The position numbers and the translations under genes are program-made. 64,000 bases of DNA from contig CAZPLO010000004.1 in assembly GCA_964587725.1 (NCBI GenBank), positions 16,323 through 80,322 on the forward strand. The letters run 5' to 3'. The DNA is from an uncultured archaeon (GTDB taxonomy: Archaea; Altiarchaeota; Altiarchaeia; IMC4; SCGC-AAA252-I15). The notes beneath the pieces are model-generated. The model did no database searches and had not been told where the DNA came from. It worked only from the letters and a program-made list of their open reading frames with translations. This document shows, one piece after another, positions 5,387-49,208 of the stretch. How positions within the stretch are numbered: position 1 is the first letter of the stretch; each line of letters opens with the position of its first letter.

Positions 5387-5391
5387 CTGCT

Positions 5392-7122: not shown

Positions 7123-7123
7123 A

Positions 7124-7213: not shown

Positions 7214-7220
7214 ACTACTA

Positions 7221-7245
7221 ATATAAATAGAACCGGTATAAATAC
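7221..7245. promoter_or_regulatory. Bidirectional promoter: two TATA boxes (atataaatag and ggtataaatac) serving the + gene at 7253 and the - gene at 7213
   Basis: AT-rich TATA-like elements about 25 nt from each divergent start codon in a GC-rich genome. Confidence 0.5.
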
Positions 7246-7252
7246 TAAAAAA

Positions 7253-7468: not shown

Positions 7469-7469
7469 T

Positions 7470-10351: not shown

Positions 10352-10413
10352 GTAAAAGGATTGTGCGTCCGGGAATAAAAGAACTATATATTGGAGGAAC
10401 CACATGTATTACC

Positions 10414-30768: not shown

Positions 30769-33153
30769 ATGGGGAACGGCCATAAAACGCCGGGGAGACG
30801 CCGGGTGAAAGGCGGTGAGATGCCGGGGCCCATGGAGCTGGGGGAAAACTCGGAAACCATGCTGGTGGGGCCGCATCCTCTTGAAACCGACGCTGAAGGC
30901 AGGCCGGTGAACACTGCAGCATGCCTGATACTGAAAGACGACAATCCTCTTGGGAAAAATCTTTTTGTGACCTCAAGGCCGGACCACCGCGCAGGCGCCT
31001 TCAAGACCGCGTTTCTGATAGCATATTCCATGGGGGACGGCGTAGAAGACCCGAATAGGGGCTTGAGCAATGACAGGGTTCCTTCTTCAGCCCAATTGGA
31101 TCAGCTGGCTCGGCTGACGCTCAAGAGGTCTAAATCCCCTGAAGAGGAGGGACTGGTCCGTAGGCTGGATGAGACCGCGATGAAACACGGAGAAAAGGTA
31201 ATTGGTAATTATGTGCCGGTGGTCATGCGCGGGTTCGGCGAAAACGTGGAGGTGTGCGTGAGAAAAGACCCTGAAGTGGATTTGGACACACTAGATGAGT
31301 CGGTGAGGGTCATAGAGGAGGATCTGGGGGTGCCCTACGACAGAGTGAAAGTTGTTTCTAACAGCATTGAAGGAAATGAGAGCCTCAGGAGACACTATGA
31401 ACGCCGGGGGTCGTTGTACAGGCTTTATCCCCCCACCATGTCAAAGGACAGGCAGGTGGAGTTCATCAGAGAATCCATGATAAAAACAGACCAGGGGGTT
31501 AGCCTCTACTATGCAGCGGGGAGTGGAGAACGTTTGCTGACTGAAGGAGGGTATAGGACGGTCGTTGAAGACTTTAAGGGGGGGAGGGTGGACAGGGAAA
31601 CCCTTGCCGGACAGTTCCATTGCATGACAGACCTCTACGGAAGACAGAACCGCACTGGAACCCCTTCCCTATCATTCTGTAAGGTGGCGTCTGGCAGGTT
31701 CGGGATAAAATATCTCAGGGACGTTTTAGAATCCGTAGAGGACAGTGGGAAAACCGACGCCGAAGTAGTCCGCGTGCTCCAAGAAAGTCTGGAACGGATG
31801 CACGACGCCACCGAAAACCACTTCCACGAAGACAATATGGATAACGAGCAGTGGAGGTGGAACATGTACAAGACACTCATGGGCATGGAGAAAGCCCCGT
31901 CGGAGGAGCTCAAGCTGGGTTTGGGCCGCGAGTTCATGGGGGAGGTGGAGTGGCTGCCCGGCGGGAGAAACGAAGATGACGGGTTCATTCTCGACCCCCA
32001 CCTGGACGCGATGATAGAGCAAGGTGACGTGCGCGCCCAGCACGTTAAGGCGATTATATCGGACTTCAGGGGATACTGCGGCAGGAAAGGCCATGAGCTG
32101 GAGCACATAAACGTGGGGCAGGTGATAGAGTCGCTTTCCAAGAGGGGGAAGGTGAGCCCTGAGGAGGTGCGTGAGGTGTACGTGGTCGAATGGCGTGTGG
32201 AAGGCGATGAGAGGAACAGGGTGGACCTCGTCAGAAGGCAGAAATGGGATGAACGATACTACCGGGAAGGCCGTGAATTCGACTTCGGCGACAGGAAAAA
32301 CTTCTACGGGAGAGTTAAACTGGAGGAGATGATGAAGGCCGGCGAGGCCGGCCGCGACGAAAGAGGATGGTATGTGGAGAGAGACGGCGTGAAAGTCTAC
32401 GGCAGGGAGCTGACCGAGGGGGAGGCTGAGACGTTAAGCCGAGAATACACGATGTTCGTTTTGGACCGGAACAGGTTCGACGAGGTGATATCACCGGGCC
32501 ACCCCCACATGGAGGTCATACCCTGCAAGGAGGTTGAGGGCGATGCAGAATACGACACCCCGTTTTTAACCCGCTCATACTCCGAGGGCGTCCCAGTCGA
32601 CAAGATACCGGATGAAATGTACGGCAACCCCGAATTCGTTAAGAGGCTGGCGATATACATGGGCGTGGAGGCCGCCCGCAACATGAGTTTGGGCAGGATA
32701 AACCCCCACACCGGATTCCACCTCTACGGGGACGGAGACGAGATAATAAAACTCAATGAGGGCGGCCTGCCCACAGGTTATATAAGAAACGATGAGACCA
32801 GCGTATTCGGGGACGTGGAAAAGCCGCTGGCGGAGTACGTATCAACGTTCAACGCGTGGATTGTGAAGACCCTGGATAAGGCGGCCGACAGGGGTGTGGG
32901 TTTGGAGGACATTGGCGCCATACATGAGAAGTATGTGGACGCGTTCAAGAGAGAATTCATCAGGATACAGAAACTGTTCAGGGACGACGGCGTAAGAAAC
33001 ATGTTCGACGGCAATCCCCCGAAGAGGGGGGAGGAACGTTACGGGTGGGCCGGCTGCAGGTATCTGGTGCCGAAGGCGGTGGACAGGGTGAGGGTGGCTG
33101 ACGTTGAAGAACTGGTCGGGGAGCTTAACAAGGGTTTCAGACCCGTCGGCTAA
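30769..33153 (+). CDS. Large hypothetical protein (794 aa)
   Basis: Uninterrupted ORF of ordinary composition. A TATA element gatttaaagg lies about 25 nt upstream. No recognisable motif. Confidence 0.5.
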   Translation: MGNGHKTPGRRRVKGGEMPGPMELGENSETMLVGPHPLETDAEGRPVNTAACLILKDDNPLGKNLFVTSRPDHRAGAFKTAFLIAYSMGDGVEDPNRGLSNDRVPSSAQLDQLARLTLKRSKSPEEEGLVRRLDETAMKHGEKVIGNYVPVVMRGFGENVEVCVRKDPEVDLDTLDESVRVIEEDLGVPYDRVKVVSNSIEGNESLRRHYERRGSLYRLYPPTMSKDRQVEFIRESMIKTDQGVSLYYAAGSGERLLTEGGYRTVVEDFKGGRVDRETLAGQFHCMTDLYGRQNRTGTPSLSFCKVASGRFGIKYLRDVLESVEDSGKTDAEVVRVLQESLERMHDATENHFHEDNMDNEQWRWNMYKTLMGMEKAPSEELKLGLGREFMGEVEWLPGGRNEDDGFILDPHLDAMIEQGDVRAQHVKAIISDFRGYCGRKGHELEHINVGQVIESLSKRGKVSPEEVREVYVVEWRVEGDERNRVDLVRRQKWDERYYREGREFDFGDRKNFYGRVKLEEMMKAGEAGRDERGWYVERDGVKVYGRELTEGEAETLSREYTMFVLDRNRFDEVISPGHPHMEVIPCKEVEGDAEYDTPFLTRSYSEGVPVDKIPDEMYGNPEFVKRLAIYMGVEAARNMSLGRINPHTGFHLYGDGDEIIKLNEGGLPTGYIRNDETSVFGDVEKPLAEYVSTFNAWIVKTLDKAADRGVGLEDIGAIHEKYVDAFKREFIRIQKLFRDDGVRNMFDGNPPKRGEERYGWAGCRYLVPKAVDRVRVADVEELVGELNKGFRPVG

Positions 33154-34242: not shown

Positions 34243-34857
34243 TCACAGCAGCCTCCTCCGGATAACGCCTATTCCATGGTTTATCAGCATCTGCACCCTG
34301 GGTTTGCTTTTGATTCTGACGCCTCCGGCTTTGAGTGCTGCGCCTAATTCGCCGTTGAAGTCTAGGGTTACGGAGCCGATTTCACGGAGTGTGTGCGCGT
34401 CGCTGCCCCCCACCATCGGCAGGCCCGCGTCGGCGCACGTCTTCACGGGATCGCGTGTATTGCCGAACGTGTGGCCGTTAACAACTTCGACGGCGTCGAA
34501 CGGCAGCTCCAGTATCAGGTCGCCCACGCCCCGCCGGTATGTGTCGTATGGGTGGGCCGCTATTGCCAGGCCGCCGAGTGAGTGTATGCGTTCGACTGTT
34601 TCAGCAGCGGAAAGGTCGCGGGGGACGAGCTCCTTTACGCCGAGGGCGAGTATGTGCCCTTCCAGGGAGGAAACCTCCACGCCAGATATGACCGTGAACG
34701 AGCCATCTGCGTATTCCAGAGCCTCCAGCGAACCGTCGATGACATCGTGATCCGTAATCGCTATGCCGTCCAGGCGCCTTCTCGCGTACTCTATTATCTC
34801 TGCGGGGCTGGCTTTGCCGTCGGACCTGCTGGAGTGGACGTGTATGTCATACAACAT
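34243..34857 (-). CDS. PHP-domain metal-dependent phosphoesterase
   Basis: MLYDIHVHSSRSDGKASP...ITDHD...GHIL, which is the PHP His/Asp pattern. Confidence 0.65.
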   Translation of the reverse strand: MLYDIHVHSSRSDGKASPAEIIEYARRRLDGIAITDHDVIDGSLEALEYADGSFTVISGVEVSSLEGHILALGVKELVPRDLSAAETVERIHSLGGLAIAAHPYDTYRRGVGDLILELPFDAVEVVNGHTFGNTRDPVKTCADAGLPMVGGSDAHTLREIGSVTLDFNGELGAALKAGGVRIKSKPRVQMLINHGIGVIRRRLL

Positions 34858-34864
34858 GGTTGTA

Positions 34865-34876
34865 TTATTTAAAGCA
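34865..34876 (+). promoter_or_regulatory. TATA box (ttatttaaagca) about 25 nt upstream of the hydB-like start at 34895
   Basis: AT-rich element at the canonical spacing. Confidence 0.45.
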
Positions 34877-34894
34877 GGTTTTAATTAGTAAGCA

Positions 34895-35863
34895 ATGGCT
34901 GTGGTTTTAGCCAAGAAAGACCTGGGGGGGTACCTTAGCTGGTTGTCGGGTGAATACGCGGTCTACGCGCCCGTCAGAAGGGGTGACGTGGTCACCTTCG
35001 ACGTGTGGCGGGAAGGCGACGAAGTCGTGTTAGACTACGACACCACCAACTCGCCTGTGAAGAGGGCTTTTTTCCCGCCGGAGGAGACGCTTCTGGGATA
35101 CAACGGAGACGTCAGGGCGCCGGCGCACAACCGGAAGGTGCTGGTGTTCGGCCTCCACCCCTACGACGTCCAGGCGATAAGGATACTGGATGAGGCGTTC
35201 GGCAAGCCTGTGAAGGACACATACTATCAGAGAAGGCGTAGGGGTTCCGTGCTGGTGGCCGTGGAACACGGGGACGTCCCCAACGCATTCTACAGCGAAC
35301 TGGACCTTGACCTTGAAAGCGGATACGACATCATGCTGTTAGACGAAGGCGACCACATCGTATTGGACGTGAAGACGGAGAAGGGGAAGAGGCTGGTGAA
35401 GAACGGGCACGTGAAGTCCAGGAACGTGAAGGCGAGGACGCCCCGCATCCCGGATGCGGGGGAGGGGAAAATCGATTTGGAGAAGACCATGGAGTTCCTC
35501 GACCGGGGCCCCGACCAGGAGCTGTGGCATGAAGTGGCGAAAGAGTGTTTCGCCTGCGGCGTCTGCGCGTACGTGTGCCCCATCTGCCACTGCTTCGACG
35601 TGGAAGACAAAACCCGGCTGGAAGGCGGCGGGGAGAGGGTGAGGAAGTGGGATTCATGCATGCTCGCCGACTTCGCATTGGTGGCAGGCGGCCTAAACTT
35701 CAGGGAAAAGAGACATGAGAGGATACACAACTGGTACCACCACAAATTCAGCCGCGCAGTCAAGGAGCGGGGGCACCCGGACTGCGTGGGGTGCGGACGG
35801 TGCATAACATACTGTCCGGCGGCGATAAAGATTCACGAAAACATCAGGAGGTGCGGGGAATGA
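34895..35863 (+). CDS. hydB: Sulfhydrogenase beta subunit / AsrA-like 4Fe-4S protein
   Basis: 322 aa with CFACGVCAYVCPICHC and CVGCGRCITYCP ferredoxin-type clusters. The fold family is that of Pyrococcus HydB / AsrA. Confidence 0.65.
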   Translation: MAVVLAKKDLGGYLSWLSGEYAVYAPVRRGDVVTFDVWREGDEVVLDYDTTNSPVKRAFFPPEETLLGYNGDVRAPAHNRKVLVFGLHPYDVQAIRILDEAFGKPVKDTYYQRRRRGSVLVAVEHGDVPNAFYSELDLDLESGYDIMLLDEGDHIVLDVKTEKGKRLVKNGHVKSRNVKARTPRIPDAGEGKIDLEKTMEFLDRGPDQELWHEVAKECFACGVCAYVCPICHCFDVEDKTRLEGGGERVRKWDSCMLADFALVAGGLNFREKRHERIHNWYHHKFSRAVKERGHPDCVGCGRCITYCPAAIKIHENIRRCGE

Positions 35864-36690
35864 ACACGTACATGCCGTATAATACGAGGGTGGAGGGGGT
35901 TACCGACCTCGGCGGGGACAGCGTGATGCTGACCCTCCAGTTCACAGACGAGTCGGTGAGGAAGAAGTTCACGTTCACGCCCGGGCAGTTCATACAGCTG
36001 TCGCTACTCGGCCACGGAGAAATACCGGTGGGCCTCGCATCCAACCCCGGCGACAGGAAACACATTCAGGTGTCGGTGAGGAAGGCCGGCAACGTGACCC
36101 AGGCCGTCCACCGCCTCGAAAAAGGGGATGAAGTCGGCGTGCGTGGGCCGTTCGGCAACGGCTTCAAGGAGGAGTGGATTAAGGGCAAGGACCTGCTGGT
36201 GATATCAGGCGGCTGCGGGATACCCCCGATGAGGGCGCTGATGCTGCACGCCATGGAGAACAGTAAAGACTACGACGGCATCACGTTGTTGTACGGGGCG
36301 AGGACCCAACAGGACCTGCTGTTCCGGCAGGAATACAAAAAGTGGGGCAAGAAGGCGAGGGTGTTGCTGACCGTCGACACGGAGGATGAGCCGGACCCGG
36401 AGCTGGGCTTGGAGTGCGGCGTCGGCGTGGTTACGACGCTCATAGACGACGTTGAAATTAAAGACAACACGGTGGCTGTGATGTGCGGCCCCGGAATCAT
36501 GTACAAGTTCGTTGTGAATAAACTGCTGGAGGAGGGGATGAAGCCCGAAAACATGCTGCTGTCACTGGAGAGACGAATGAAGTGCGGGGTCGGCAAATGC
36601 CAGCACTGCAACCGCGGCTCAAAGTACGTGTGCCTCGACGGCCCAGTATTCACATACAAGGAGCTGCTGGAGGAATACGGGGGACTGTAA
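35860..36690 (+). CDS. hydG: Sulfhydrogenase gamma subunit / AsrB-like FAD-NAD(P)-binding oxidoreductase with C-terminal 2Fe-2S
   Basis: ATGA overlap with the upstream gene and an AGGAGG SD sequence. An FNR-like fold followed by CGVGKCQHCNRGSKYVC. Confidence 0.65.
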   Translation: MNTYMPYNTRVEGVTDLGGDSVMLTLQFTDESVRKKFTFTPGQFIQLSLLGHGEIPVGLASNPGDRKHIQVSVRKAGNVTQAVHRLEKGDEVGVRGPFGNGFKEEWIKGKDLLVISGGCGIPPMRALMLHAMENSKDYDGITLLYGARTQQDLLFRQEYKKWGKKARVLLTVDTEDEPDPELGLECGVGVVTTLIDDVEIKDNTVAVMCGPGIMYKFVVNKLLEEGMKPENMLLSLERRMKCGVGKCQHCNRGSKYVCLDGPVFTYKELLEEYGGL

Positions 36691-37469
36691 TGAAGGCTCT
36701 GCCGAAACCCAGGATTGCGGTGTTCGACTTCACCGACTGTGAAGGCTGCGAGGTCGAGTTCATCAACCTCAAGGAGAAACTGATGGATTTGCTGGAGGAC
36801 GTGGAGATAGTGAACTGGCGGCTCGCGAAGGAGGGGAACGAGCCGGGGCCGTTCGACATAGCATTCATAGAGGGAACCCCGGTGACCCCGGACGAGCAGG
36901 AGCTGCTCCGGCAGATAAGGGGGAAGACCAGAATCATAGTGGGGTTGGGGGCGTGCGCGTGCACCGGCGGCGTGCCCGCGATAGTGAATGATGAAAAAGA
37001 CCGCCTGGACTTCTACGGGAAAGTGTACCCGCCGGAGTACAAGCCGCAGGGCACCATGGCTAAGCCGCTGAGCGCCTTCGTCGAAGTCGACTTCACGTTG
37101 AACGGCTGCCCCGTAGACAAAAACGAGATAGAGCGGTTCCTCACCGCGTTCCTCAAGGGAGCGAGCCCCGAAGACAGGGACAACCCCGTGTGCATGGAGT
37201 GCAAGATAAACGACAACCAGTGCAGGCTCGTCAACGGCGAAGTATGCCTGGGGCCGATAACAAGAGGCGGGTGCGGCGCCTTCTGCGTGACCCACGGGAA
37301 ATACTGCTACGGCTGCTACGGGCTGGTGAAGGACGCGAACTTCGAACGGATGGTTGAGGTGCTGGAGGATTTGGTCGGCGCGGAGGAGACTGAGAGGATA
37401 CTGAACATGTTCCTGAGCGAATCCGAGGAATACAAGAAACACTACCGCCTCGACATGGTCCAGCCCTGA
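36690..37469 (+). CDS. hydD: [NiFe]-hydrogenase small-subunit homologue (sulfhydrogenase delta-like)
   Basis: TAATG overlap with hydG. Carries CEGCE, GACACTGG and GCP motifs plus a C-terminal poly-Cys region for medial and distal clusters. Confidence 0.65.
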   Translation: MKALPKPRIAVFDFTDCEGCEVEFINLKEKLMDLLEDVEIVNWRLAKEGNEPGPFDIAFIEGTPVTPDEQELLRQIRGKTRIIVGLGACACTGGVPAIVNDEKDRLDFYGKVYPPEYKPQGTMAKPLSAFVEVDFTLNGCPVDKNEIERFLTAFLKGASPEDRDNPVCMECKINDNQCRLVNGEVCLGPITRGGCGAFCVTHGKYCYGCYGLVKDANFERMVEVLEDLVGAEETERILNMFLSESEEYKKHYRLDMVQP

Positions 37470-38723
37470 CTATCTGGCGCAGCCGCCGACGGGAACGGAC
37501 AGTATCGAGTTCTCCATGTAAATCAGCTTCGCATCAGGCCCCTTCTCCTCCAACGCCGCGTCAACGGCCTCCTGGGCGTTGGGATACGGCTTCATGAACA
37601 CACGCTCCAACACGCTGTCATCCAATTCGGTGACGCCGTACATGCTAGCCCACAGTGAAATGTCCAGGAGGCGCGCGGCCTTGTGGTAGCCGAGCTTGTA
37701 CTTCTGCTTAATCGACATCAGTATGGTCTTGGGGTCTGCGCTGGAGCTCATCAGCGCATAGTAGTTTTCAGGCCCCACGCCGTTCTCGCACGACGACACG
37801 AACACCAGTATCCCGTCTTTCTTCAGCGCGTACTTCGCGGACTCGATGACCTTCTGGGTCTGGTACAGGTCCTGGTTCATGGGCTCGTGGACGGCCGCCA
37901 ACACCACATCCGCCTTCTCCTTCAGGGGATACGTGTATTTCGTGGACGCGAAGTCACACGCGCTCCTGAAGGAGCCGCGGAGGTCGCCCGCGTAGACGGC
38001 GGCGACGTCGCTGTCCTCGTCCAACACCAGGTTGAAGCTGAACACGTCCGCCTCCACCATCGACGCGGCCCCCTCCATGTCCTCGTTGACGGGGTTGCCG
38101 TCGAGCCTGCACAGCTGCGACCCCTCCTCCAACGCGAGGGAGTGGTTCTTGGTTATCGTCTTGTACCCTGCAACCCCGGGGAGGAAGCTTTTCCTGCCGC
38201 CCGTGTATCCTGCGAAATAATGGGGTTCGACGCTGTTGATGTTGACTATTCCGTCGGCCTCCCAGATTATCTTGTTATAGTATACGCTGGTAGCCCGTGC
38301 GGTGTCGCCTGCGTAGCGGAGGCATTCGTCGTCCCTGCTTTCATGACCTACGACGGAGTCCCTGTGCAGCTCATAGTTTTCCCTGCCCATAATCTTCCGG
38401 AGCGCAGGCTTCTCAGGCGGCTTATGGGAGCCGGTGGCTACCACGAACTTCAGCTCCTTCCCCTCCAGCTTCGGAAGCAGGGCGTCCAAGAAAGGAGCCG
38501 TCGGCGTCGGCCGGGTGAGGTCGTTGAGTATGAGGAGTACCGTGTCTTTACCCTTCAGGAACTCCTGGAAGGACGTTCCAGAAGGATTTTGAAGACCTTC
38601 TTCCAGGAGCTCGTTCAAACCCCTTTTCTCGAACGACGACGGCCGGATGACCTCCAATACTCTGTCGTCGTCCACGCGGACGGAGACGGTGCCGTCTCCG
38701 TAGGGCATGTTGAACTCCATCAC
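37470..38723 (-). CDS. LarA-family protein (nickel-pincer lactate racemase-like, DUF2088)
   Basis: 417 aa. The N-terminus MMEFNMPYGDGTVSV matches the LarA start M..ELPYGK. Followed by conserved GSHKP and HYFAGYTGG-type segments. Confidence 0.6.
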   Translation of the reverse strand: MMEFNMPYGDGTVSVRVDDDRVLEVIRPSSFEKRGLNELLEEGLQNPSGTSFQEFLKGKDTVLLILNDLTRPTPTAPFLDALLPKLEGKELKFVVATGSHKPPEKPALRKIMGRENYELHRDSVVGHESRDDECLRYAGDTARATSVYYNKIIWEADGIVNINSVEPHYFAGYTGGRKSFLPGVAGYKTITKNHSLALEEGSQLCRLDGNPVNEDMEGAASMVEADVFSFNLVLDEDSDVAAVYAGDLRGSFRSACDFASTKYTYPLKEKADVVLAAVHEPMNQDLYQTQKVIESAKYALKKDGILVFVSSCENGVGPENYYALMSSSADPKTILMSIKQKYKLGYHKAARLLDISLWASMYGVTELDDSVLERVFMKPYPNAQEAVDAALEEKGPDAKLIYMENSILSVPVGGCAR

Positions 38724-40066
38724 AGATCACCTTCAGACCGCATCGCCTTCATCATCTCCAGCACCGAAAAGGATGCGCGGGTCACGCCCATGCTCCGCGT
38801 GTCGGTGTCGGTGCCCGCCAGGTAGAGCCCGCCCAACGGCGCGTTCGGCGACGGAAACCTGGAGCCAACGGTTATCGCCGCCTTCTCGGGTATCGTGACC
38901 TGCATATGCTTGAAGTCGACGTGTCCCTCCACTCCTGGGACGGCGGTGTATATGGACTCCATCAACGCCTTCTCCTCCGACTCCACACCATCCTCGACTA
39001 TGGACGTGAATCCCACCAGCTGATGGCCTTCCGGTGCGAACGAACCGTTGTAGTTGCTGACCGGCATGGCCCAGTAGGATTTCCCCTCCTCGAACCACAC
39101 CTCCGCCCCAATGTAGTCGAACTCCGGAAGCCTTGTGTCGAGGCCCAGCCACACCGTGATGGAGGTGGTCTGCTCCAGGGTATCCAGGGCCCTGACGTAG
39201 TCTTTGGGGAGGCCGCTGGTGAGTGAAGGAAGGTCCTTCACGAAACCCGTGTATACGACAGAATCCGCCTCGTAGCTGCCTTCACCGGTTGAGACGCCGG
39301 TCACCCGTCCGTCGCCGTCTATGGAGGTCACCTCCTCCCCCGCCTTGACGGCCACCCGTCCGCGGGGGAACGACTTCATTATGCAGTCTGTGACGACGCC
39401 GGCGCCCAGCCGCGGATAAGCCTGGTGGTAGCTGCCGTCGTATGCGAGGAGCTTCGCGAAACTCGCTATCCCGCCTATTACTTTGTCGCCTATGAACTCG
39501 CTCTGCGTCTCCTCCATGTACCGGGCTCCCTTCACCAGCCGCCACACGGGAGTCTTCCTCATACTCTTACCGCTCATGAAATAGCAGAATGTGTCTATGA
39601 ACTTCCACGTCTTCTCGCTGAAGTCGTTCGCCTTCAAGTAGTCGTATACGCTCTGGCCCCGGTCCACCGACCCGAACACGCTGAACGCCACAGACGAGCC
39701 GAGGATGCTGGTTATCAGTATCCGGTCCTTCTGCGGGAGGACGTCGAAGTTCACCCACGCCTGCACCGTCCACGGGAAGACGACCAGCTTGTCCCTGGTG
39801 CGGATGTGGTAGTCGCCGTAGGGCATGAACTTGGGTATGACGTCGAAGTAACGGTCCATCAGCTCCGTCAGCGGCCCGTTGTCGACGTGGGTTATCGCAT
39901 GAAGACCGGTGTCGACTGTGTAGCCGTCGAGGCTGTACGTGCGGAGGTTCCCGCCGACCTCGCTGCTTTTCTCCAGCACCAGCACGTTCTTCCCCTCCTT
40001 CGACAGGGCGAGTGCTGAGAGCAGGCCGCTCACGCCGGCACCCACCACTATTGTATCGTATTCCAT
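38720..40066 (-). CDS. FAD-dependent oxidoreductase (phytoene desaturase/amine-oxidase-like)
   Basis: MEYDTIVVGAGVSGLLSALALSKEGKNVLVLEKSSEVGG, a dinucleotide-binding GxGxxG...E motif. 448 aa. Confidence 0.65.
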   Translation of the reverse strand: MEYDTIVVGAGVSGLLSALALSKEGKNVLVLEKSSEVGGNLRTYSLDGYTVDTGLHAITHVDNGPLTELMDRYFDVIPKFMPYGDYHIRTRDKLVVFPWTVQAWVNFDVLPQKDRILITSILGSSVAFSVFGSVDRGQSVYDYLKANDFSEKTWKFIDTFCYFMSGKSMRKTPVWRLVKGARYMEETQSEFIGDKVIGGIASFAKLLAYDGSYHQAYPRLGAGVVTDCIMKSFPRGRVAVKAGEEVTSIDGDGRVTGVSTGEGSYEADSVVYTGFVKDLPSLTSGLPKDYVRALDTLEQTTSITVWLGLDTRLPEFDYIGAEVWFEEGKSYWAMPVSNYNGSFAPEGHQLVGFTSIVEDGVESEEKALMESIYTAVPGVEGHVDFKHMQVTIPEKAAITVGSRFPSPNAPLGGLYLAGTDTDTRSMGVTRASFSVLEMMKAMRSEGDL

Positions 40067-40067
40067 T

Positions 40068-40589
40068 CTACCAGGGCTTCCTCTTCAACCTGATAACCCA
40101 TGCGACGATGTTGGCGATGACGTGCAAGGGTATGGTGAGCATGCACGCCAAAATCAGGTATCCGAAGTCGACGGGCAACACAGTCCACGCCAGGAAGAAC
40201 GCCCCGAAGATGTAGTCGAGCTGGTCCAGGAAGAATACTGGGTGGCCGCGGCCCAAACCCGCACGCCTTTTTATGAAGCTTGCGGCCAAATCCCCAGCCA
40301 ACGCGCCGAACCCCAGGAGAAAACCCAGGTACGGAGTCATCGCGATGAACCCCGCCGGCTGAATCTGCTGCTGTATCGCGGCCGCAGCCACCGCCGCCAG
40401 CACCCCGAATACGAAACCCCGCCAGGTTTTTCCGTCCCCGAATATCCGCTTCCCTGCGAATTTTTTCCCGAAGTCCATGGGGGTGGAAAAATCTTTGAGG
40501 ACCGGAAACCCCGACACGTCTATGGCGGCGGAGTTGGCGACGTACGCAGGGAATATGAGCCACATCACATTCAGGAGACCTGGAAGCAT
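40068..40589 (-). CDS. carS: CDP-archaeol synthase
   Basis: 173 aa with GDGKTWRG, FGALAGDLAASFIKRR and DQLD motifs, co-linear with Archaeoglobus CarS. Confidence 0.8.
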   Translation of the reverse strand: MLPGLLNVMWLIFPAYVANSAAIDVSGFPVLKDFSTPMDFGKKFAGKRIFGDGKTWRGFVFGVLAAVAAAAIQQQIQPAGFIAMTPYLGFLLGFGALAGDLAASFIKRRAGLGRGHPVFFLDQLDYIFGAFFLAWTVLPVDFGYLILACMLTIPLHVIANIVAWVIRLKRKPW

Positions 40590-42649: not shown

Positions 42650-45586
42650 ATGCACAAGCCCGTTGAACGCCCGCGCGGGAGGGGCGGAGAACCGGGAGCC
42701 CCCGACGACCGCGGAACAGAGGCGCAGAGGGACATCATAGTCGTAACCGCCCCCACAATCAAGGACAAACTGATGTATCAGGGGATGCTGCATGCCGCCC
42801 GTTTGAAGGGGCCGGAAGACAGGGACGCCATAAGGGTAGTCGACTACCTTGCCACGCATGTCCGGGGGTTCCGGAACGTCGACCCCGACCGTCAGAGGGA
42901 AAGCCTTATGGAGGCTGTCGGGGGGGACGTCGACGCCAAGGCCATATACGTCAAAGACGAGAGAGGTTTCGTGAGAAACGCGAACGAAATCCGGGAGTCG
43001 CTCCGAGAAGGCGACATGAAGGATGTGGTGAAGCTGCTGAAGGCCGTTGAGGGGAGGGTCCACCGGGACGAGTACCTGTTCTACAAAGGCATGGTGGACG
43101 ACTACGCCGCCGAACACTGGTCTGAAGGCCCTAAACCCGAGGGCTGGAGCGACTACGAAGGCATCAGGGGTGAAGTGGAGGATAACCCCCTGATGAGGCG
43201 CGGGAAACAGGACGTCGGATTGGGCAGACGGCAGATAGAGTTGGTTGAGGCTAGCATCGAGGCATACAACCGGGCTGCTTCCCCCATGCTTCAGGGAATG
43301 GACGGGGAAACCCAGAGGGAGGCCAGCGCCCTCACCTCCTGGATGATGATAGACGAGATGAGCGAGGAAACACGGCTGGAGACTGTGGAGAGGCTGAGGC
43401 GGGTGTCCGAATCCGACATAGGCGCCGGCGTGAAGACGGACGTCATGGGGGACATAGTGGGCAGAGGCCTTAACATAGAGGTGGAGAAGACCATGCTGTC
43501 GTGGGTGGATGAGGGCCCTGAAACGTTCTTCAAAAACATAAGCTACATGGAGGGGGCGTGGATGTTCTCCAGGCCCCCGCAGGAGGAGGTGGATGAGGTT
43601 AAGGGCATAGTTGACTCCCTCCCCGAAGGGGATGGGGAGCAGTTCCTGAAGACCTACGTCAGACTCATTAAAATACGGTCCCCCATAGCCACGGAAGACC
43701 CGGACCGGAAAAACCCCACAAGGCGGCGGTACGTGAGAGACGTTAAACATGCCGTCGACTCAGGAGATGAATTCGGGTGGGTGATTGGCAGATACCACTA
43801 CAGAGCCATGGTCAACGGACTAGTCAACGAACTGGACCTCCTGCCGTCTGACGGGAAGCTCCGGCTGATTACGGGACTATACGACCTCCGGGGGAACGCG
43901 GAAACAGGGGATGACATGAAGAGGGTGGCGCAGGTTCTGGAGGTCTGCGAGAGGATGGACCCCGCCCACCGGCTCCCGTCGGTTTCGGAGATGCTGGTTG
44001 CGACCGAGTTCCTGTGGGCGGCCGCCGGAAAAAAGCCAGGGGCGGAGGCGATGTACACTATGTCCCTGGTGGCGTCGAACCACGAGCACCTGGAAAACCT
44101 TTTCAGATACACGAAGATGGTTGATGACAGACAGTTCAGGAAGATGGTGGGTGAGCTTGCAGACACCTCCGCCCAGCCGGCGCAGACCATCGAGGGAGTA
44201 AGGGAGGACAGTTACGCGGAAGAATACGGCAAGATGCTTGACAGGGGGGAGGTGGAGGGTTTGAGCGAAGGCGAGATCGACCGGCAGAAACACATGTTCT
44301 CCCTGTACGGAATCCTGGCGGACGACATACGGTACATGGACGCGGTGGGGCGGGCCGCCAACAGCATCGCCGACGTTAGCCCCGGGGCTGCGAAGGCTTA
44401 CTGGAACACATACTATGTGGAGCCTGCGGAGACGCTGTGGGACGGCTCCCTCAACGAGGAGAGGATGGCGGTCGGAGAGCTCGTTGATTCCGTGGGCAGG
44501 ATAACGGACCACATGTTCATCGGCGCCTTCGTTGAACATTACGCCGAGAACCCCGGTTCCATTGAGAGGGTAAATGATTTGGACGGCATGAAAATCAGGG
44601 GCGAGAGCCTCTCCAAGGAGGTGGCGCTGGCCATGGGCAGGAGCCCCGAACACCTGAAAATCCTCGGAGGAGACACCATAGACAAACTCGCCGACAACTA
44701 CCACGGCGGACGATACCTGGTGGAGGAGTTCCTCGATAGTTTGAAGAACGACGAACTCAACATGGCGAGGGCGTACGACGCACTGCTCCACGCGGACAAC
44801 AGGACCGCACAGAAACTTCGGAACGATTACTTGAGGGGCGGGCTGGCTGACGCCGACCTCGAGGGGGTGGAGTTGACGGCAGAGAACATAGGGGACGAAT
44901 TGGAGAGGGTTGCTGGGGAGAAGAAGGCGCGGGAGGATGCTGAACGGAGGTTCCGGCAGACTGTTTCAAAGGAACTCGGTGCCGTCGGAAAGGACTACCT
45001 GCATCTGGCTGATGCCGTTCCGGTGCTGCGCACTCCGGAACATGTGGAGTCGTTCGGCAGGTTGTATAGCGGAGTCGGCGAAAGGATGAGGTCGAGGGTT
45101 GTGGGGCTGGCGTTGGATGCGGCTGAGAGGCGGAAGACTGAAACCGCGGCGGAAATCATGGAGTCGGCAGATCTCGCGTCAAAACTGGAGAGCCTGTCTA
45201 AGACGCCTTATGCGGCTAACAATTTCATGGACGTATTGTACGCGGCAGCGCTCACCTCGGATGAGGGGGAGTTCGACGCGGGGGTGCGGCGGGTCTTCAG
45301 ACTGCGCGAGATACAGGAGGCCCTGGTGGTTGAGGGGGTGCTCGACTTCACCGGCGTCAAAGACGAGATGAGGGGAGACGCGGTTGAGATGGTGTTGAAC
45401 ACACCGCTGAAGCAGCGGCCGTTCCTTACGGCACTGCCGACCTCCGAAATGCTTGAGCACGGGGAGGGGCTGCGGAGGTTCATGGACGAGAACCCACACA
45501 TCGTCGAAGCCATGTCCAACACCGTTTACGTTGAGGCGAGGGAAAACGGCAGAACATACGTTCTGGGAGGTGGCGGCGGTGAATAA
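42650..45586 (+). CDS. Giant hypothetical cytoplasmic protein 1 (978 aa), acidic, no recognisable domain
   Basis: Uninterrupted ORF with protein-like composition. Antisense ORFs are Pro/His/Arg-rich junk. The stop overlaps the start region of the next giant ORF. Confidence 0.6.
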   Translation: MHKPVERPRGRGGEPGAPDDRGTEAQRDIIVVTAPTIKDKLMYQGMLHAARLKGPEDRDAIRVVDYLATHVRGFRNVDPDRQRESLMEAVGGDVDAKAIYVKDERGFVRNANEIRESLREGDMKDVVKLLKAVEGRVHRDEYLFYKGMVDDYAAEHWSEGPKPEGWSDYEGIRGEVEDNPLMRRGKQDVGLGRRQIELVEASIEAYNRAASPMLQGMDGETQREASALTSWMMIDEMSEETRLETVERLRRVSESDIGAGVKTDVMGDIVGRGLNIEVEKTMLSWVDEGPETFFKNISYMEGAWMFSRPPQEEVDEVKGIVDSLPEGDGEQFLKTYVRLIKIRSPIATEDPDRKNPTRRRYVRDVKHAVDSGDEFGWVIGRYHYRAMVNGLVNELDLLPSDGKLRLITGLYDLRGNAETGDDMKRVAQVLEVCERMDPAHRLPSVSEMLVATEFLWAAAGKKPGAEAMYTMSLVASNHEHLENLFRYTKMVDDRQFRKMVGELADTSAQPAQTIEGVREDSYAEEYGKMLDRGEVEGLSEGEIDRQKHMFSLYGILADDIRYMDAVGRAANSIADVSPGAAKAYWNTYYVEPAETLWDGSLNEERMAVGELVDSVGRITDHMFIGAFVEHYAENPGSIERVNDLDGMKIRGESLSKEVALAMGRSPEHLKILGGDTIDKLADNYHGGRYLVEEFLDSLKNDELNMARAYDALLHADNRTAQKLRNDYLRGGLADADLEGVELTAENIGDELERVAGEKKAREDAERRFRQTVSKELGAVGKDYLHLADAVPVLRTPEHVESFGRLYSGVGERMRSRVVGLALDAAERRKTETAAEIMESADLASKLESLSKTPYAANNFMDVLYAAALTSDEGEFDAGVRRVFRLREIQEALVVEGVLDFTGVKDEMRGDAVEMVLNTPLKQRPFLTALPTSEMLEHGEGLRRFMDENPHIVEAMSNTVYVEARENGRTYVLGGGGGE

Positions 45587-48500
45587 ATTCTACAGGGTCG
45601 ACGACGGACGCCTGCGTGAAGAAGACCCTGATGCCGTCGGAGGGTTGAAACGGACCAGGGCAGATGTCAACGCCGAAAGGATAACGGAGGGTGAGGTGCC
45701 GCCGCAGTTGATGCCGCCTCTGATGCATGCTATGGCGGACGAGCCACGCCGCATGTACGACGCATACCTGTTCAGCGCCAAAAACCCGGAAGGCTTCGAA
45801 ACAGTCAATGGCCTCCTCAGGGACGGTAGGATAGATGCGGACGAATTCAACACAGCCGTGAAACTGGGGGTGGACCGGCCGGCGGCGTTCAAGGATTTGA
45901 AGGACGTCATCTCCGAAGGCGGTGAAATGGTGGAGCGGTCGAGACTCGTCCTGGCGGTGGCTGCCAGAGGCTATGACAGGTTCGTTGAAGACAGTCTGCT
46001 GGCGGCCATGGACGACGAGCTGGGACTGGAGGATGTGAGGAAGCTGACGCGGGAGCTGAAGGCTGGCGAGGTAGGGGAATCAGAACTCAAGGGTAAACTT
46101 GAATCCCTGTGGCCGCAGCCGGAACCCCTGGAGCAGGAAGTCCGGGAGGTGGTGCAGCCGGAGGTACGTGAGCCGGAGATCACGCCGGAGGAGAGGAAAG
46201 CCAACCAGGTTGAAGACAGCATAATGACCACCTTCCCCGACGAGCACTGGAACCGGGCCGCCGACGCCTACGCCAGGTTCAAGGACGGCGGCCACAGCCT
46301 CACCGAAACCGAATGGCGGGACGTATTCCACGCCGTCGGGAGAACCCATGAAGACCGTTTCCCGGAGGAGAAGATACTCTATTTTGAAAACATGATGGCG
46401 CAGCCGGAGCACATAAGCATGTACGTGAACAATGAGAGACTCAGCAGGGCTTGGAAGCTGATGGAGGGTGTGGGCGCGGACATAAGATACAACCCAGACC
46501 AGGATTTCAGGAGGGAGTCGTTCAATACAGTATTCCTCAGAGAGCCCGAAGTCTTCCAGTTCCTGACAGGGGAAAAATCAGATTCCATAGGGGAAGCGGT
46601 TAATGGGGTGAGGGTTGTGTGCGGACGCGATAACGCGCTGAAGTACCTGAGGCACATTATCTCCCACCGCGGACAGGCGGACGTGCTTGCTGACGCGTCT
46701 CGGGTGACCAGGGCGGGTATGCTGGTGGACTCGGTCAATGAAGAGGAAGGCGGGTTGCGGGAGAGAGCATTCTATGACGTGTTCCTGTCCGAACCCGGCG
46801 ACTTCCAGCTGCTGACGGGAGAGATGGCAGGCGGCCTCCGGGAGGCTGTGTCGACGGTGGACTCCCCCGTCGAACACCGGCTGAGGTTCCTAGAGCACAT
46901 GCTGTCACCGGAAGACCCCGGCAGAGACTACATGGAGGCTGTGGCGGACGGCAAAAGCTTCGGCATCGCGGCGAACGTCATGGACGGCCTGCGGCACATC
47001 ACCCACGAATTCAACAACGGCAGGGGCGTGTTCAAATCCGACGAGGCGCTGGCGGAGGCAATGGCGGGATACGGCCTGGAGGGAAGATACGACGACATGG
47101 TGTTCGAGAGCGTGTTCATCCGCTCCCCTGACACCTTCAGAAGAATCGCCAGCGGGAAATCCCACGAGGCCATGAGGGAGATACTGACGGACAACGATAA
47201 AATCCGGAGTGCGGGCCACTACATGAAAGACTACATACTGCTGCTGGGCAAGAGACCCGAGGTGCTGGGGAACTTCATAGAGGTGGAGGAGGGCAGGATC
47301 ATATGGGCGGACAGGATACCCGTGTACATCAGCGCAGTCTCGCGGCTGCAGGACGGGGACAGACGCGTTAAACGGTACTTCCATGCGATGATGGGCGGCA
47401 GCGAATACGCGACGGCTTTGAGCAACCCCGAAGTCATCGACAGAGCCCTTGGCTACCTCCGAGACCCCAACGTTATGCGCTACCTGCAGCCGACTACGGC
47501 AGTGCACCCCGACTTCATGGCCATGGACAGGGAGGAGCAGGCGGCTGAGCTGAACACAGTCCGCAGAATCATAGAGGAGGAAGAGAGGGTTGAGGCTCCT
47601 CATAGGGAGGGGCCTGGGGTCAAGGAACCCCGGCGACGGGAGAGGGAAGCCGGCGTGGAGAGGGAACGCAGGCCTCTGAGGCTGACCACAACGTTGCACG
47701 GGGTTATGATACCGAATCCCGAGTACGCGTCGATGGAGTGGGAGGGAGTGGACTCCGAGGTCCGGAGCATGTTCACGTTGAACACCACCCACATGAGCGC
47801 GAGCGAGATAGGGAAGCTCAGGGAGCTGAACCTGCCGTACCACCAGTCGCTGATATTCAACGTGCTGACCAACGTCAGCGGCAGACTGGAGGCTTCAGTG
47901 GACGAACTTCAGAGGATTATGATGATGCATCCGCTGGTGGGCGTGGTCTACGGAGGCGAGGGGGGCAGGGACAACCTGCTCGCCGACATACGGGCCATGA
48001 GCGAAGGAAACATGCCCCTCTACGCCGCAGGGGGCGTTGTGGGCATAAGGGAGGATTACACCAACATAGGCAGGACCGACGTCGGCGAAGCCAGGGGCAG
48101 CATCATGCGGGAGGCGGGAGGCGAAGACCAGGTCGCCGTACTGACTGCACTGGCGGAGTCAGAGGACCATCACGCCAGGATAGACGACGTCATAACCAAG
48201 GTGGCGGGCTTCACGGGCCGGCACCCCTCCGACATTTCAGACACAGTCAGGGGGGTGGTGGGCGAGCTGAAGAAGCAGGGTGTTTTGGTGAACGCGGAAC
48301 CCACGGGCAACGAGGTGTTGTTGAGCCCGTCGTTCATAGCCGAGGTCCAGGGCATGAAGGTGCCTGAGGCCTACTGGAGCACGTACCGGCACGTGGTGGA
48401 TCCGCTGGCGAGGGTGCGTGGCATGTATTTGGCTGAGTTCGGAGACGAACCCGGCGTAGAGGACTTCAACCCCCGTATGGTGTCAACAGAGCAGGGGGTG

Positions 48501-49208
48501 CGGGATGCGGTCGCGATGTTCAGCAGCAGGGACGACGCCATCATAACACGGAGGCTGGCTCTGCTGAAGATTATGTCCAGGCTGAACCTGGACCTGAACC
48601 ACGGCGCCAAGCTGGAGAACATCAGGAGGCATGCGGGTGAGGCGGGGTTGAGCGACACGATGGTGAACAGGGTGCTACCGCAGCTGGTGGACGACAGGGA
48701 AGGCGTGTTGCAGAGGGTGGCGCTCGGATACTACAGGATAAACCCGCGATACTGGGCCAAGAAGGAGACCGTCTACGGGGAGATAGAGTACGGTGAGTTC
48801 GACCGCACGAATCCGGAGATGCATGGGAACATAGACGGTGAACGAGTGGAGGCAGATGTGATGAGAAAAGTGGATGAGAGGGACGTGGGGGATGCTATGA
48901 CGCTTCTGAAATCCATCTCCCACCAGCACCGGCGGAGACGGTACTGTGCGAGAGCCAGCGACCTCCGGGATTTGATGAGGATGTGGGGGGTTGACGTCTC
49001 ACTGGAGGATGTGACACGCGACCTTGACGCCCTAGGGAAGAGCATCGAGGCGCCGGTGCGGGTGAGGGACAGGTGGGTGGACGGTGAACTGGTTCAGGAG
49101 GAGGTGCCCGTGGGCGCGTCGTATCCTCCGCTGGTTGACAAGTATTCGCCGCCGGAGGCGTCTCAAGAAAGATATTTCATATTCAACCCCAGCGGACACT
49201 ACAGCTGA
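45579..49208 (+). CDS. Giant hypothetical cytoplasmic protein 2 (about 1210 aa) with three internal repeats of about 90 aa
   Basis: A likely GTG start at 45579 (or 45570) is preceded by GGAGGT at 45565-45570 and overlaps the upstream TAA, so the listed ORF from 45453 is probably over-extended. Repeats FNTVFLREPEVFQFLTGEKS, FYDVFLSEPGDFQLLTGEMAG and FESVFIRSPDTFRRIASGKS. Confidence 0.6.
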   Translation: MNKFYRVDDGRLREEDPDAVGGLKRTRADVNAERITEGEVPPQLMPPLMHAMADEPRRMYDAYLFSAKNPEGFETVNGLLRDGRIDADEFNTAVKLGVDRPAAFKDLKDVISEGGEMVERSRLVLAVAARGYDRFVEDSLLAAMDDELGLEDVRKLTRELKAGEVGESELKGKLESLWPQPEPLEQEVREVVQPEVREPEITPEERKANQVEDSIMTTFPDEHWNRAADAYARFKDGGHSLTETEWRDVFHAVGRTHEDRFPEEKILYFENMMAQPEHISMYVNNERLSRAWKLMEGVGADIRYNPDQDFRRESFNTVFLREPEVFQFLTGEKSDSIGEAVNGVRVVCGRDNALKYLRHIISHRGQADVLADASRVTRAGMLVDSVNEEEGGLRERAFYDVFLSEPGDFQLLTGEMAGGLREAVSTVDSPVEHRLRFLEHMLSPEDPGRDYMEAVADGKSFGIAANVMDGLRHITHEFNNGRGVFKSDEALAEAMAGYGLEGRYDDMVFESVFIRSPDTFRRIASGKSHEAMREILTDNDKIRSAGHYMKDYILLLGKRPEVLGNFIEVEEGRIIWADRIPVYISAVSRLQDGDRRVKRYFHAMMGGSEYATALSNPEVIDRALGYLRDPNVMRYLQPTTAVHPDFMAMDREEQAAELNTVRRIIEEEERVEAPHREGPGVKEPRRREREAGVERERRPLRLTTTLHGVMIPNPEYASMEWEGVDSEVRSMFTLNTTHMSASEIGKLRELNLPYHQSLIFNVLTNVSGRLEASVDELQRIMMMHPLVGVVYGGEGGRDNLLADIRAMSEGNMPLYAAGGVVGIREDYTNIGRTDVGEARGSIMREAGGEDQVAVLTALAESEDHHARIDDVITKVAGFTGRHPSDISDTVRGVVGELKKQGVLVNAEPTGNEVLLSPSFIAEVQGMKVPEAYWSTYRHVVDPLARVRGMYLAEFGDEPGVEDFNPRMVSTEQGVRDAVAMFSSRDDAIITRRLALLKIMSRLNLDLNHGAKLENIRRHAGEAGLSDTMVNRVLPQLVDDREGVLQRVALGYYRINPRYWAKKETVYGEIEYGEFDRTNPEMHGNIDGERVEADVMRKVDERDVGDAMTLLKSISHQHRRRRYCARASDLRDLMRMWGVDVSLEDVTRDLDALGKSIEAPVRVRDRWVDGELVQEEVPVGASYPPLVDKYSPPEASQERYFIFNPSGHYS

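What the first reader, a model, noticed from the sequence alone, without database searches (positions are those of the whole stretch)
34895..38723. HydB-HydG-HydD sulfhydrogenase-like operon lacking the catalytic large subunit, abutting a convergent LarA-family gene
Three tightly overlapping genes (ATGA and TAATG junctions, AGGAGG SD) encode homologues of the beta (AsrA-like 4Fe-4S), gamma (FAD/NAD(P) plus 2Fe-2S) and delta ([NiFe] small subunit with CxxC...GxCxxxG...GCP motifs) subunits of group 3b hydrogenases. In Thermococcales the canonical order hydBGDA ends with the [NiFe] large subunit. Here the slot where hydA would sit is filled instead by a LarA-like gene on the opposite strand whose stop codon directly abuts the hydD stop. 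Either the large subunit is encoded elsewhere, or this is a hydrogenase-derived NAD(P)H:acceptor electron-transfer module that has lost hydrogenase function.
Basis: partly seen in the sequence, partly recalled or inferred. Interest (0 to 1): 0.6.

Follow-up and report, generated by a model that had tools for sequence, protein, structure and literature searches.

The report
Split group 3b hydrogenase operon
Three of the four genes of an ordinary NADP-linked [NiFe] hydrogenase sit here in an Altiarchaeales archaeon, and the missing catalytic gene was not lost: a genome rearrangement moved it to another locus, so this is a split operon and not a new enzyme.

Summary
Window 34895-37469 carries three overlapping genes for the beta, gamma and delta subunits of a group 3b (sulfhydrogenase-type) [NiFe] hydrogenase. 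No large-subunit gene follows. A convergent LarA-family gene ends on the base next to the hydD stop.

The source is an Altiarchaeales archaeon. All seven relatives examined (HydD 62-81% identical) have hydA directly after hydD, or after one 66-aa ORF. Their upstream gene order matches the window. The break lies within about 10 bases upstream of the ancestral hydA start.

An intact orphan hydA, followed by hypC, occurs in the same sequencing-run series. It has no hydD upstream, but its downstream gene order matches the relatives. Its divergence from the relatives matches that of the window's hydD. Its tetranucleotide composition is as close to the window as the window's own 3-kb pieces are.

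HydD and this HydA match the consensus at every highly conserved column. dN/dS for all four genes is 0.09-0.27, the same range as in relatives.

Most likely the enzyme is a normal four-subunit H2:NADP(H) oxidoreductase encoded at two loci. The reading that hydrogenase function was lost is disfavoured. That the two contigs belong to one genome is inferred, not proven. Interest is low.

The parts
34858..34894 (.). 37-bp A/T-rich divergent intergenic region between the PHP-domain gene (34243-34857, minus strand) and hydB. It is the presumed promoter region for hydBGD.
   Evidence: Sequence (ttatttaaagcaggttttaattagtaagca). The PHP|hydB arrangement is conserved in L004, L005, L009 and JGI 3300075153. 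Promoter function is inferred, not tested.
34895..35863 (+). hydB: beta subunit of a group 3b [NiFe] hydrogenase, AsrA-like, carrying [4Fe-4S] clusters. 322 aa.
   Evidence: Pfam Fer4_22, E = 4e-31. NCBIfam ShyB 2.8e-47, HydB 1.3e-43, AsrA 1.4e-36. Best PDB match is sulfhydrogenase 1 beta, 9nez_B, E = 1.6e-38, over residues 5-319. 73% identical to the L004 and L009 orthologues.
35860..36690 (+). hydG: gamma subunit with FAD, an NAD(P)-binding domain and a [2Fe-2S] cluster. 276 aa. The start overlaps the hydB stop (ATGA) and has an AGGAGGTG Shine-Dalgarno sequence.
   Evidence: Pfam FAD_binding_6, NAD_binding_1 and DHODB_Fe-S_bind. NCBIfam PRK08345 1e-79 and ShyC 2e-68. PDB 9nez_C, E = 4e-61. 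Junction sequence.
36690..37469 (+). hydD: delta subunit, the [NiFe] small subunit with three [4Fe-4S] clusters. 259 aa. The start shares one base with the hydG stop (TAATG).
   Evidence: Pfam Oxidored_q6, E = 3e-21. ShyD 1e-53 and HydD 7e-51. PDB sulfhydrogenase 1 delta (9nez_A, 9e1j_A, 9e15_A), E about 9e-47, with all Cys aligned. No deviation at any of the 65 columns that are at least 93% conserved among 120 homologues.
37446..37469 (+). New 3' tail of hydD (RLDMVQP plus stop) created by the rearrangement. Homology to the relatives' hydD stops after ...EEYKKHY (37445).
   Evidence: DNA and protein comparison of the junction with L004, L013, L014 and L009. In the relatives the last codons run into the hydA ATG (ATGA overlap).
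37470..38723 (-). LarA-family gene for a nickel-pincer-nucleotide-type 2-hydroxyacid racemase/epimerase homologue. 416-417 aa. It is convergent with hydD, with no intergenic base between the two stops. It is not part of the hydrogenase.
   Evidence: Lar_N 4e-48 and LarA_C 7e-14. NCBIfam malate racemase LarAH6 328 bits (cut-off 500) and LarA 262 bits (cut-off 460). Conserved motifs. In relatives it lies on a different contig from hydBGDA, behind CarS and an FAD oxidoreductase.
38720..40589 (-). Context genes: an FAD-dependent amine-oxidase/phytoene-desaturase-like oxidoreductase (38720-40066) and CDP-archaeol synthase CarS (40068-40589). With the LarA-like gene they form a conserved trio that was brought next to hydD by the rearrangement.
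   Evidence: Pfam Amino_oxidase 4e-22 and CarS-like 2e-42. The same order CarS, FAD oxidoreductase, LarA is found in L011 (WJMO01000011.1), and the FAD oxidoreductase-LarA part in L012, whose 98-aa first ORF at the contig start was not identified.

Best explanation
The three genes encode the beta, gamma and delta subunits of a cytosolic group 3b (sulfhydrogenase-type, NADP-coupled) [NiFe] hydrogenase of an Altiarchaeales archaeon. The ancestral operon was hydB-hydG-hydD-hydA. In this lineage a rearrangement cut the chromosome within about 10 bases upstream of the hydA start codon. hydBGD stayed with its upstream neighbours, and hydD gained a seven-codon tail that abuts the 3' end of a CarS-FAD oxidoreductase-LarA block. 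hydA stayed with its downstream neighbours (hypC and an MscS-like gene) and now sits at another locus behind a new A/T-rich upstream region. The enzyme is still assembled from all four subunits. H2 is split or formed at the [NiFe] site of HydA. Electrons pass through the three [4Fe-4S] clusters of HydD, the clusters of HydB, and the [2Fe-2S] cluster and FAD of HydG to NADP(H). Shown here: the gene identities, the break position, the conservation of the proteins, and the existence of an orphan hydA in the same samples. Inferred: that both loci belong to one genome, that the subunits assemble in trans, and the electron path, which is taken from the solved sulfhydrogenase 1 and from family knowledge.
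For: **Ancestral state**
- hydA (416 aa, PF00374) follows hydD directly in L004/L007, L005, JGI 3300075153, L008, L013 and L014. In L009/L010 it follows after a 66-aa ORF.
- The upstream order IleRS, aminotransferase, AsnC, large unknown protein, Asd, PHP, hydB is shared by the window and L004.

**Orphan hydA**
- P0122 (429 aa) is 76% identical to L004 HydA and 86% to the N-terminal part of L009 HydA. The window's HydD is 73-74% and 77-78% identical to the same two relatives.
- It is encoded in Logan run SRR7048220. The window's hydD occurs in SRR7048218, SRR7048219 and SRR7048220.
- Its contig has a TauE-like gene and a 94-aa ORF upstream, with no hydD. Downstream, hypC and the C-terminus of an MscS-like gene are syntenic with L008 and L007.
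- P0122 carries RICGVCPTAH and DPCITCSVH.

**Composition**
- The tetranucleotide distance from L006 to the window is 0.0200. The window's own 3-kb pieces average 0.0205. The distance from L006 to the relative Bin_400 is 0.0300.

**Constraint**
- HydD deviates at 0 of 65 highly conserved columns and HydA at 0 of 96.
- dN/dS is 0.09-0.27 for B, G, D and A, the same range as between relatives that have an intact operon.

**Family and break point**
- The best solved-structure hits of all four proteins are the four chains of sulfhydrogenase 1, entry 9nez.
- The break point is mapped.
- Group 3b [NiFe] hydrogenases are already reported in both Altiarchaeota clades (PMC8755723).
Against: - The window's contig and the hydA contig were not shown to lie in one genome. 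The source assembly is not in the genome collection, and the 36-kb NCBI contig carrying P0122 could not be retrieved.
- Several Altiarchaeales strains could co-occur in these samples.
- Pairwise dN/dS averages over the whole divergence, and dS is near saturation. A recent relaxation would therefore not show.
- No expression or biochemical data exist.
- Apart from hypC, the hyp genes of this organism were not seen.
Confidence: 0.8

Rival explanations
1. True loss of the catalytic subunit. This organism has no partner HydA, and the orphan hydA belongs to another strain. HydBGD then survives as a hydrogenase-derived NAD(P)H:acceptor module, for example a polysulfide or ferredoxin reductase.
For: No hydA or hyp gene lies in the 64-kb window. 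Genome membership of L006 is inferred only. From general knowledge, the beta-gamma pair resembles AsrAB and has been discussed as the sulfur-reducing part of sulfhydrogenase. Small subunits can partner with other catalytic modules in archaeal hybrid hydrogenases (PMC11216029).
Against: An orphan hydA without hydD needs a small subunit just as BGD needs a large one, and the two occur in the same run series. Their divergence and composition match. HydD retains every conserved residue, including all cluster ligands, and shows no faster evolution than relatives. The break spares both reading frames precisely.
Confidence: 0.08
2. Assembly artefact. The hydD|LarA junction is a chimeric join, and the real genome has hydBGDA.
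For: The sequence comes from a metagenome. The zero-base junction between two stop codons looks odd.
Against: The same junction appears in three independently assembled runs, and the same protein is on record in an NCBI contig. The orphan hydA contig shows the reciprocal junction with unrelated upstream sequence. hydD has a proper in-frame tail and stop, and LarA is full length.
Confidence: 0.03
3. HydBGD functionally partners with the neighbouring LarA-like or FAD-oxidoreductase products, forming a new redox system that replaced HydA.
For: There is physical abutment, and both HydA and LarA are nickel enzymes of about 416 aa.
Against: The genes are convergent, so they are not co-transcribed. 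In the relative Bin_400 (L011) the full CarS-FAD oxidoreductase-LarA trio lies on a contig with no hydBGDA within 10 kb, and the FAD oxidoreductase-LarA pair recurs in L012. The adjacency is seen only in this lineage. HydD keeps the residues conserved across enzymes that pair with HydA.
Confidence: 0.02

Closest known systems
Pyrococcus furiosus / Thermococcus sulfhydrogenase 1 (SHI, HydBGDA; PDB 9nez, 9e1j, 9e15, 5yxy), a group 3b [NiFe] hydrogenase
   Same: The four subunit types, the domain content and the cysteine patterns are the same. Each protein's best solved-structure hit is the matching SHI chain: beta 1.6e-38, gamma 4e-61, delta 9e-47, alpha 5e-70. The ancestral gene order in Altiarchaeales relatives is also BGDA.
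   Different: The alignments are full length, but the scores are far below the NCBIfam equivalog cut-offs for HydB/G/D and ShyB/C/D. This is a distant group 3b relative, not an orthologue of SHI or SHII. The source is Altiarchaeales, not Thermococcales. HydA ends at the His of DPCxxCxxH without a C-terminal extension. In this genome hydA is unlinked from hydBGD.
Group 3b [NiFe] hydrogenases of Altiarchaeota (Alti-1/Alti-2), reported by Bornemann et al. 2022 (PMC8755723)
   Same: This is the same phylum-level lineage and the same enzyme class. The closest homologues of all subunits are Altiarchaeales or Altiarchaeota proteins.
   Different: All seven relatives examined here keep hydA next to hydD. 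Only the window's lineage has the split.
Anaerobic sulfite reductase AsrAB
   Same: HydB and HydG are homologous to AsrA (1.4e-36) and AsrB (6e-64).
   Different: No AsrC-type sirohaem subunit is present. The third gene is a [NiFe] small subunit, and the Asr scores are lower than those for the hydrogenase families.
Split hox operons of cyanobacterial group 3d hydrogenases (from general knowledge: hoxEF and hoxUYH at separate loci in some Synechococcus strains)
   Same: Both are multi-subunit soluble [NiFe] hydrogenases encoded at more than one locus and assembled in trans.
   Different: In the cyanobacterial case the small and large subunits stay together and the diaphorase part is separated. 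Here the cut falls between the small and large subunits.

Membership tests
Group 3b [NiFe] hydrogenase (HydBGDA / sulfhydrogenase type) | Small subunit (delta) with an Oxidored_q6 fold and cysteine ligands for three [4Fe-4S] clusters | tested here: met
   Pfam PF01058, E = 3e-21. Full-length alignment to SHI delta with all Cys aligned. No deviation at any of 65 conserved columns.
Group 3b [NiFe] hydrogenase (HydBGDA / sulfhydrogenase type) | Beta subunit (AsrA-like, Fe-S) and gamma subunit (FAD, NAD(P) and [2Fe-2S]) as the diaphorase part | tested here: met
Group 3b [NiFe] hydrogenase (HydBGDA / sulfhydrogenase type) | Catalytic large subunit with RxCGxCxxxH and DPCxxCxxH motifs, encoded in the same operon | tested here: not met
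   There is none in the window. An intact one (P0122, with both motifs) is encoded on a separate contig from the same run series. That it belongs to the same genome is inferred.
Group 3b [NiFe] hydrogenase (HydBGDA / sulfhydrogenase type) | Phylogenetic placement in group 3b (HydDB-type classification of the large subunit) | tested here: inconclusive
   No classifier was available. The best PDB hits of P0122 are SHI alpha (5e-70), ahead of MvhA (8e-49), group 3d (8e-36) and Frh (4e-24). The literature assigns Altiarchaeota enzymes to group 3b.
Group 3b [NiFe] hydrogenase (HydBGDA / sulfhydrogenase type) | H2:NADP(H) oxidoreductase activity of the assembled tetramer | not testable with these tools
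   This needs biochemistry.
Thermococcales SHI / SHII equivalogs (NCBIfam NF040833/35/36 and NF040829/30/31) | Score above the curated equivalog cut-off | tested here: not met
   149-230 bits against cut-offs of 460-750. These proteins are homologues, not equivalogs.
LarA family (nickel-pincer-nucleotide racemases/epimerases), for the abutting gene | Lar_N and LarA_C domains | tested here: met
LarA family (nickel-pincer-nucleotide racemases/epimerases), for the abutting gene | Conserved His/Lys motifs for catalysis and cofactor binding (TGxH, EPHYFxGxTGGxKS, NH, QxQK). The assignment of these motifs to function is from memory of L. plantarum LarA. | tested here: met
   The motifs are visible and conserved in the alignment.
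LarA family (nickel-pincer-nucleotide racemases/epimerases), for the abutting gene | Score above an NCBIfam equivalog cut-off that would name the substrate (lactate, malate or other) | tested here: not met
   328 bits against 500 (malate racemase LarAH6) and 262 bits against 460 (LarA). The substrate is unknown.
LarA family (nickel-pincer-nucleotide racemases/epimerases), for the abutting gene | Cofactor-synthesis genes larB, larC and larE in the genome | tested here: inconclusive
   None appeared among the 37 window ORFs scanned. The rest of the genome was not available.

The most novel reading that the evidence does not exclude
Cutting hydA away from hydBGD uncouples their expression. HydBGD would then also work on its own as an NADPH-linked Fe-S/flavin reductase, for example of polysulfide or ferredoxin, and would dock HydA only under some conditions. 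It would be a natural example of a [NiFe] small subunit serving as a free-standing electron-transfer module.
Probability: 0.08. Interest if true: 0.45.

Novelty: new member of a known kind. Interest (0 to 1): 0.2.

Why it matters
The main value is as a caution for annotation. A hydrogenase survey that scores only contiguous operons, or only the large subunit next to its small subunit, would misjudge this organism, either as lacking a hydrogenase or as having a degenerate one. The locus also shows that the small and large subunit genes of a [NiFe] hydrogenase can be separated by a rearrangement while both stay intact and conserved. That implies assembly in trans and independent promoters. For Altiarchaeota physiology it supports H2-linked NADPH supply, as already proposed for the phylum. 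It opens no new mechanistic question.

Tried and rejected
- **Large subunit or hyp genes inside the window.** tblastn with two Altiarchaeales HydA proteins gave only noise. The best hit, at 5650-6156, is an FG-GAP repeat protein. Pfam scans of 37 ORFs found nothing.
- **Placing both contigs in one public assembly.** I scanned genome contigs with one 64-base IUPAC pattern built to match both window hydD and L006 hydA. It found nothing, so the source MAG is not among the species representatives.
- **Fusion query.** A HydD+HydA fusion protein against genome contigs returned only two relatives, both with hydD and hydA adjacent.
- **The 36-kb NCBI contig carrying the orphan hydA.** Two look-ups returned only the 3-kb Logan contig.
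- **NCBI accession of the source.** The cluster look-up gave no accession. The ProRS gene of the window is not on record.
- **Single-inversion model.** If one inversion explained the split, the gene after LarA in the relative Bin_400 should match what now precedes the orphan hydA. It does not: YD-shell genes follow LarA there, whereas a TauE-like gene and a 94-aa ORF precede hydA here. The rearrangement path is therefore unresolved.
- **Papers.** Searches for the run accessions found nothing. No open paper on the SHI cryo-EM structures turned up.
- **Selenocysteine or split hydA in L009.** Rejected. The 66-aa ORF is an unrelated small membrane protein, and hydA starts intact right after it.


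Full report
**Observation**

Window 34895-37469 holds three + strand ORFs of 322, 276 and 259 aa. The hydB/hydG junction is ATGA, preceded by AGGAGGTG. The hydG/hydD junction is TAATG.

Pfam gives these domains:
- first protein: Fer4_22;
- second protein: FAD_binding_6, NAD_binding_1 and DHODB_Fe-S_bind;
- third protein: Oxidored_q6.

For the first and third proteins NCBIfam ranks the Thermococcales sulfhydrogenase families first (ShyB/HydB, ShyD/HydD). For the second it ranks the cytochrome-c3 hydrogenase gamma subfamily PRK08345 first, followed by ShyC. AsrA and AsrB follow closely for the first two proteins. All scores are far below the equivalog cut-offs.

The best solved-structure match of each protein is the corresponding chain of sulfhydrogenase 1. 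These are 9nez_B at 1.6e-38, 9nez_C at 4e-61 and 9nez_A at 9e-47, each over nearly the full length. All cysteines of the delta subunit align.

The hydD stop (37467-37469) is followed on the very next base by the stop of a minus-strand gene with Lar_N and LarA_C domains. No [NiFe] large subunit and no hyp gene lies anywhere in the 64-kb window. This rests on tblastn and on Pfam scans of 37 ORFs.

**Source and relatives**

The closest homologues of HydD are from Candidatus Altiarchaeales and Altiarchaeota MAGs, at 62-81% identity. The next tier, at about 50%, is from Patescibacteria and other uncultured bacteria.

I inspected seven relatives:

| Relative | HydD identity to window | Arrangement after hydD |
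|---|---|---|
| L004/L007 (Bin_400, WJMO01000005) | 74% | 416-aa PF00374 gene overlaps the hydD stop |
| L005 | 62% | same |
| JGI 3300075153 | 73% | same |
| L008 (JAHIYG010000264) | 70% | hydA follows |
| L013 | 81% | hydA overlaps the hydD stop |
| L014 | 78% | hydA overlaps the hydD stop |
| L009/L010 | 78% | 66-aa membrane ORF, then hydA |

The genes upstream of hydB are in the same order in the window and in L004: IleRS, aminotransferase, AsnC-type regulator, a large unknown protein, Asd and a PHP-domain protein. The ancestral state is therefore hydBGDA, and the window shows a derived state.

**Where hydA went**

I searched with the L004 HydA. After the self-hit, the best match is P0122 (429 aa, 76% identity), held by NCBI and Logan.

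Its retrievable contig is L006, 3 kb, from run SRR7048220. The window's hydD is found in SRR7048218, SRR7048219 and SRR7048220. L006 reads as follows:
- the C-terminus of a TauE-like gene (+);
- a 94-aa ORF (-);
- 154 bp of A/T-rich spacer;
- hydA;
- a 117-aa ORF;
- hypC;
- the C-terminus of a minus-strand gene.

hypC and the last gene are syntenic with the region downstream of hydA in L008 and L007. P0122 carries both nickel-binding motifs, RICGVCPTAH and DPCITCSVH. Its best PDB hit is sulfhydrogenase 1 alpha, at 5e-70.

At the DNA level, homology of the window to the relatives' hydD ends after the codons for EEYKKHY (37445) and is replaced by a seven-codon tail. Homology of L006 to the relatives begins at the hydA ATG. 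The cut therefore lies within about 10 bases of the ancestral hydD/hydA overlap, and both reading frames survived.

**Are the two pieces from one genome?**

This was not shown directly. The source assembly is not among the GTDB species representatives. The 36-kb NCBI contig with P0122 could not be fetched.

The indirect evidence is consistent:
- Both pieces occur in the same run series.
- Divergence matches. Window HydD is 73-74% identical to L004 and 77-78% to L009. P0122 is 76-78% identical to L004 and 86% to the L009 N-terminal part.
- Composition matches. The tetranucleotide distance from L006 to the window (0.0200) equals that of the window's own 3-kb pieces (mean 0.0205). It is well below the distance to Bin_400 (0.0300). 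Of the window's pieces, 95% are closer to the window than to Bin_400, and none of Bin_400's pieces are.
- The two loci need each other. An orphan large subunit and an orphan BGD set are complementary.

**Constraint**

The window's HydD matches the consensus at all 65 columns that are at least 93% conserved among 120 homologues. P0122 does so at all 96 such columns among 118 HydA homologues. Pairwise dN/dS is 0.09-0.27 for all four genes, the same as between relatives with intact operons. dS is near saturation, so a recent relaxation could not be detected. Protein identities show no consistently longer branch for the window.

**Mechanism**

The best-supported reading is a normal group 3b enzyme encoded at two loci. 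H2 is oxidised or formed at HydA. Electrons run through three [4Fe-4S] clusters in HydD, the Fe-S clusters of HydB, and the [2Fe-2S] cluster and FAD of HydG to NADP(H). The path is inferred from homology to sulfhydrogenase 1 and from established knowledge of the family.

[quoted passage not shown] A role in H2-linked NADPH supply is therefore plausible.

**The LarA-like gene**

It is intact and keeps the family's conserved His/Lys motifs, but it scores below every NCBIfam cut-off. In Bin_400 it is the last gene of a CarS-FAD oxidoreductase-LarA trio on a different contig from hydBGDA. In ERZ27266623 the FAD oxidoreductase-LarA pair is seen on a short contig. The same trio is present in the window on the minus strand. 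Its position in the hydA slot, and its similar length, are coincidences of the rearrangement. The genes are convergent, and the adjacency is unique to this lineage.

A simple single inversion relative to Bin_400 does not explain both junctions, so the path of the rearrangement remains open.

**Verdict**

This is a known enzyme class in a phylum where it is already described, with an unusual but explicable gene arrangement. The loss-of-function reading is disfavoured, at about 0.08. An assembly artefact is unlikely, because the same junction appears in three independently assembled runs and the same protein is on record in an NCBI contig. Interest is low.

Noticed in passing
window 37470-40589 (minus strand); L011 8129-11245; L012 301-2888: CarS (CDP-archaeol synthase), an FAD-dependent amine-oxidase/phytoene-desaturase-like oxidoreductase and a LarA-family protein form a tightly packed trio with overlapping or near-overlapping stops and starts. 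The full trio is seen in the window and in Bin_400 (L011), and the FAD oxidoreductase-LarA pair also in L012. A nickel-pincer racemase homologue coupled to a lipid-synthesis gene is unexplained.
   Followed up: partly
L009 3776-3976; L010 978-1178: In the relative from ERZ27266623 / JGI 3300033513, a 66-aa hydrophobic ORF with no Pfam hit is inserted between hydD and hydA, with ATGA overlaps on both sides.
   Followed up: partly
JGI 3300075153 contig (no DNA held), genes at 4176-8129 of the listed locus: An Altiarchaeota relative carries a three-gene [FeFe]-hydrogenase set (HydA-like with Fe_hyd_lg_C, NuoF-like, NuoE-like). It is transcribed divergently from hydBGDA, directly upstream.
   Followed up: no
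L006 947-2236 (P0122): The orphan HydA has a 13-residue internal insertion that repeats the motif YSTAK. This makes it 429 aa where relatives have 416. All Altiarchaeales HydA proteins seen end exactly at ...DPCITCSVH, with no C-terminal extension for endopeptidase processing.
   Followed up: no
window 30769-33153, 42650-45586, 45453-49208: Three large ORFs (794, 978 and 1251 aa) are without family hits: the 794-aa ORF had none in Pfam or NCBIfam here, and the precomputed Pfam record lists none for the other two. The first has a 980-aa counterpart at the same position in L004.
   Followed up: no
window 5392-7122, 52105-53982, 60400-63837: Several large FG-GAP / PQQ beta-propeller / CARDB repeat proteins are present, probably cell-surface proteins. 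An archaeal flagellin/pilin-type gene lies at 9758-10405.
   Followed up: no
L011 11262-15129: In Bin_400 the LarA-like gene is followed by YD-shell (Rhs/teneurin-like) genes. This is a variable region that may mark a rearrangement-prone spot.
   Followed up: no
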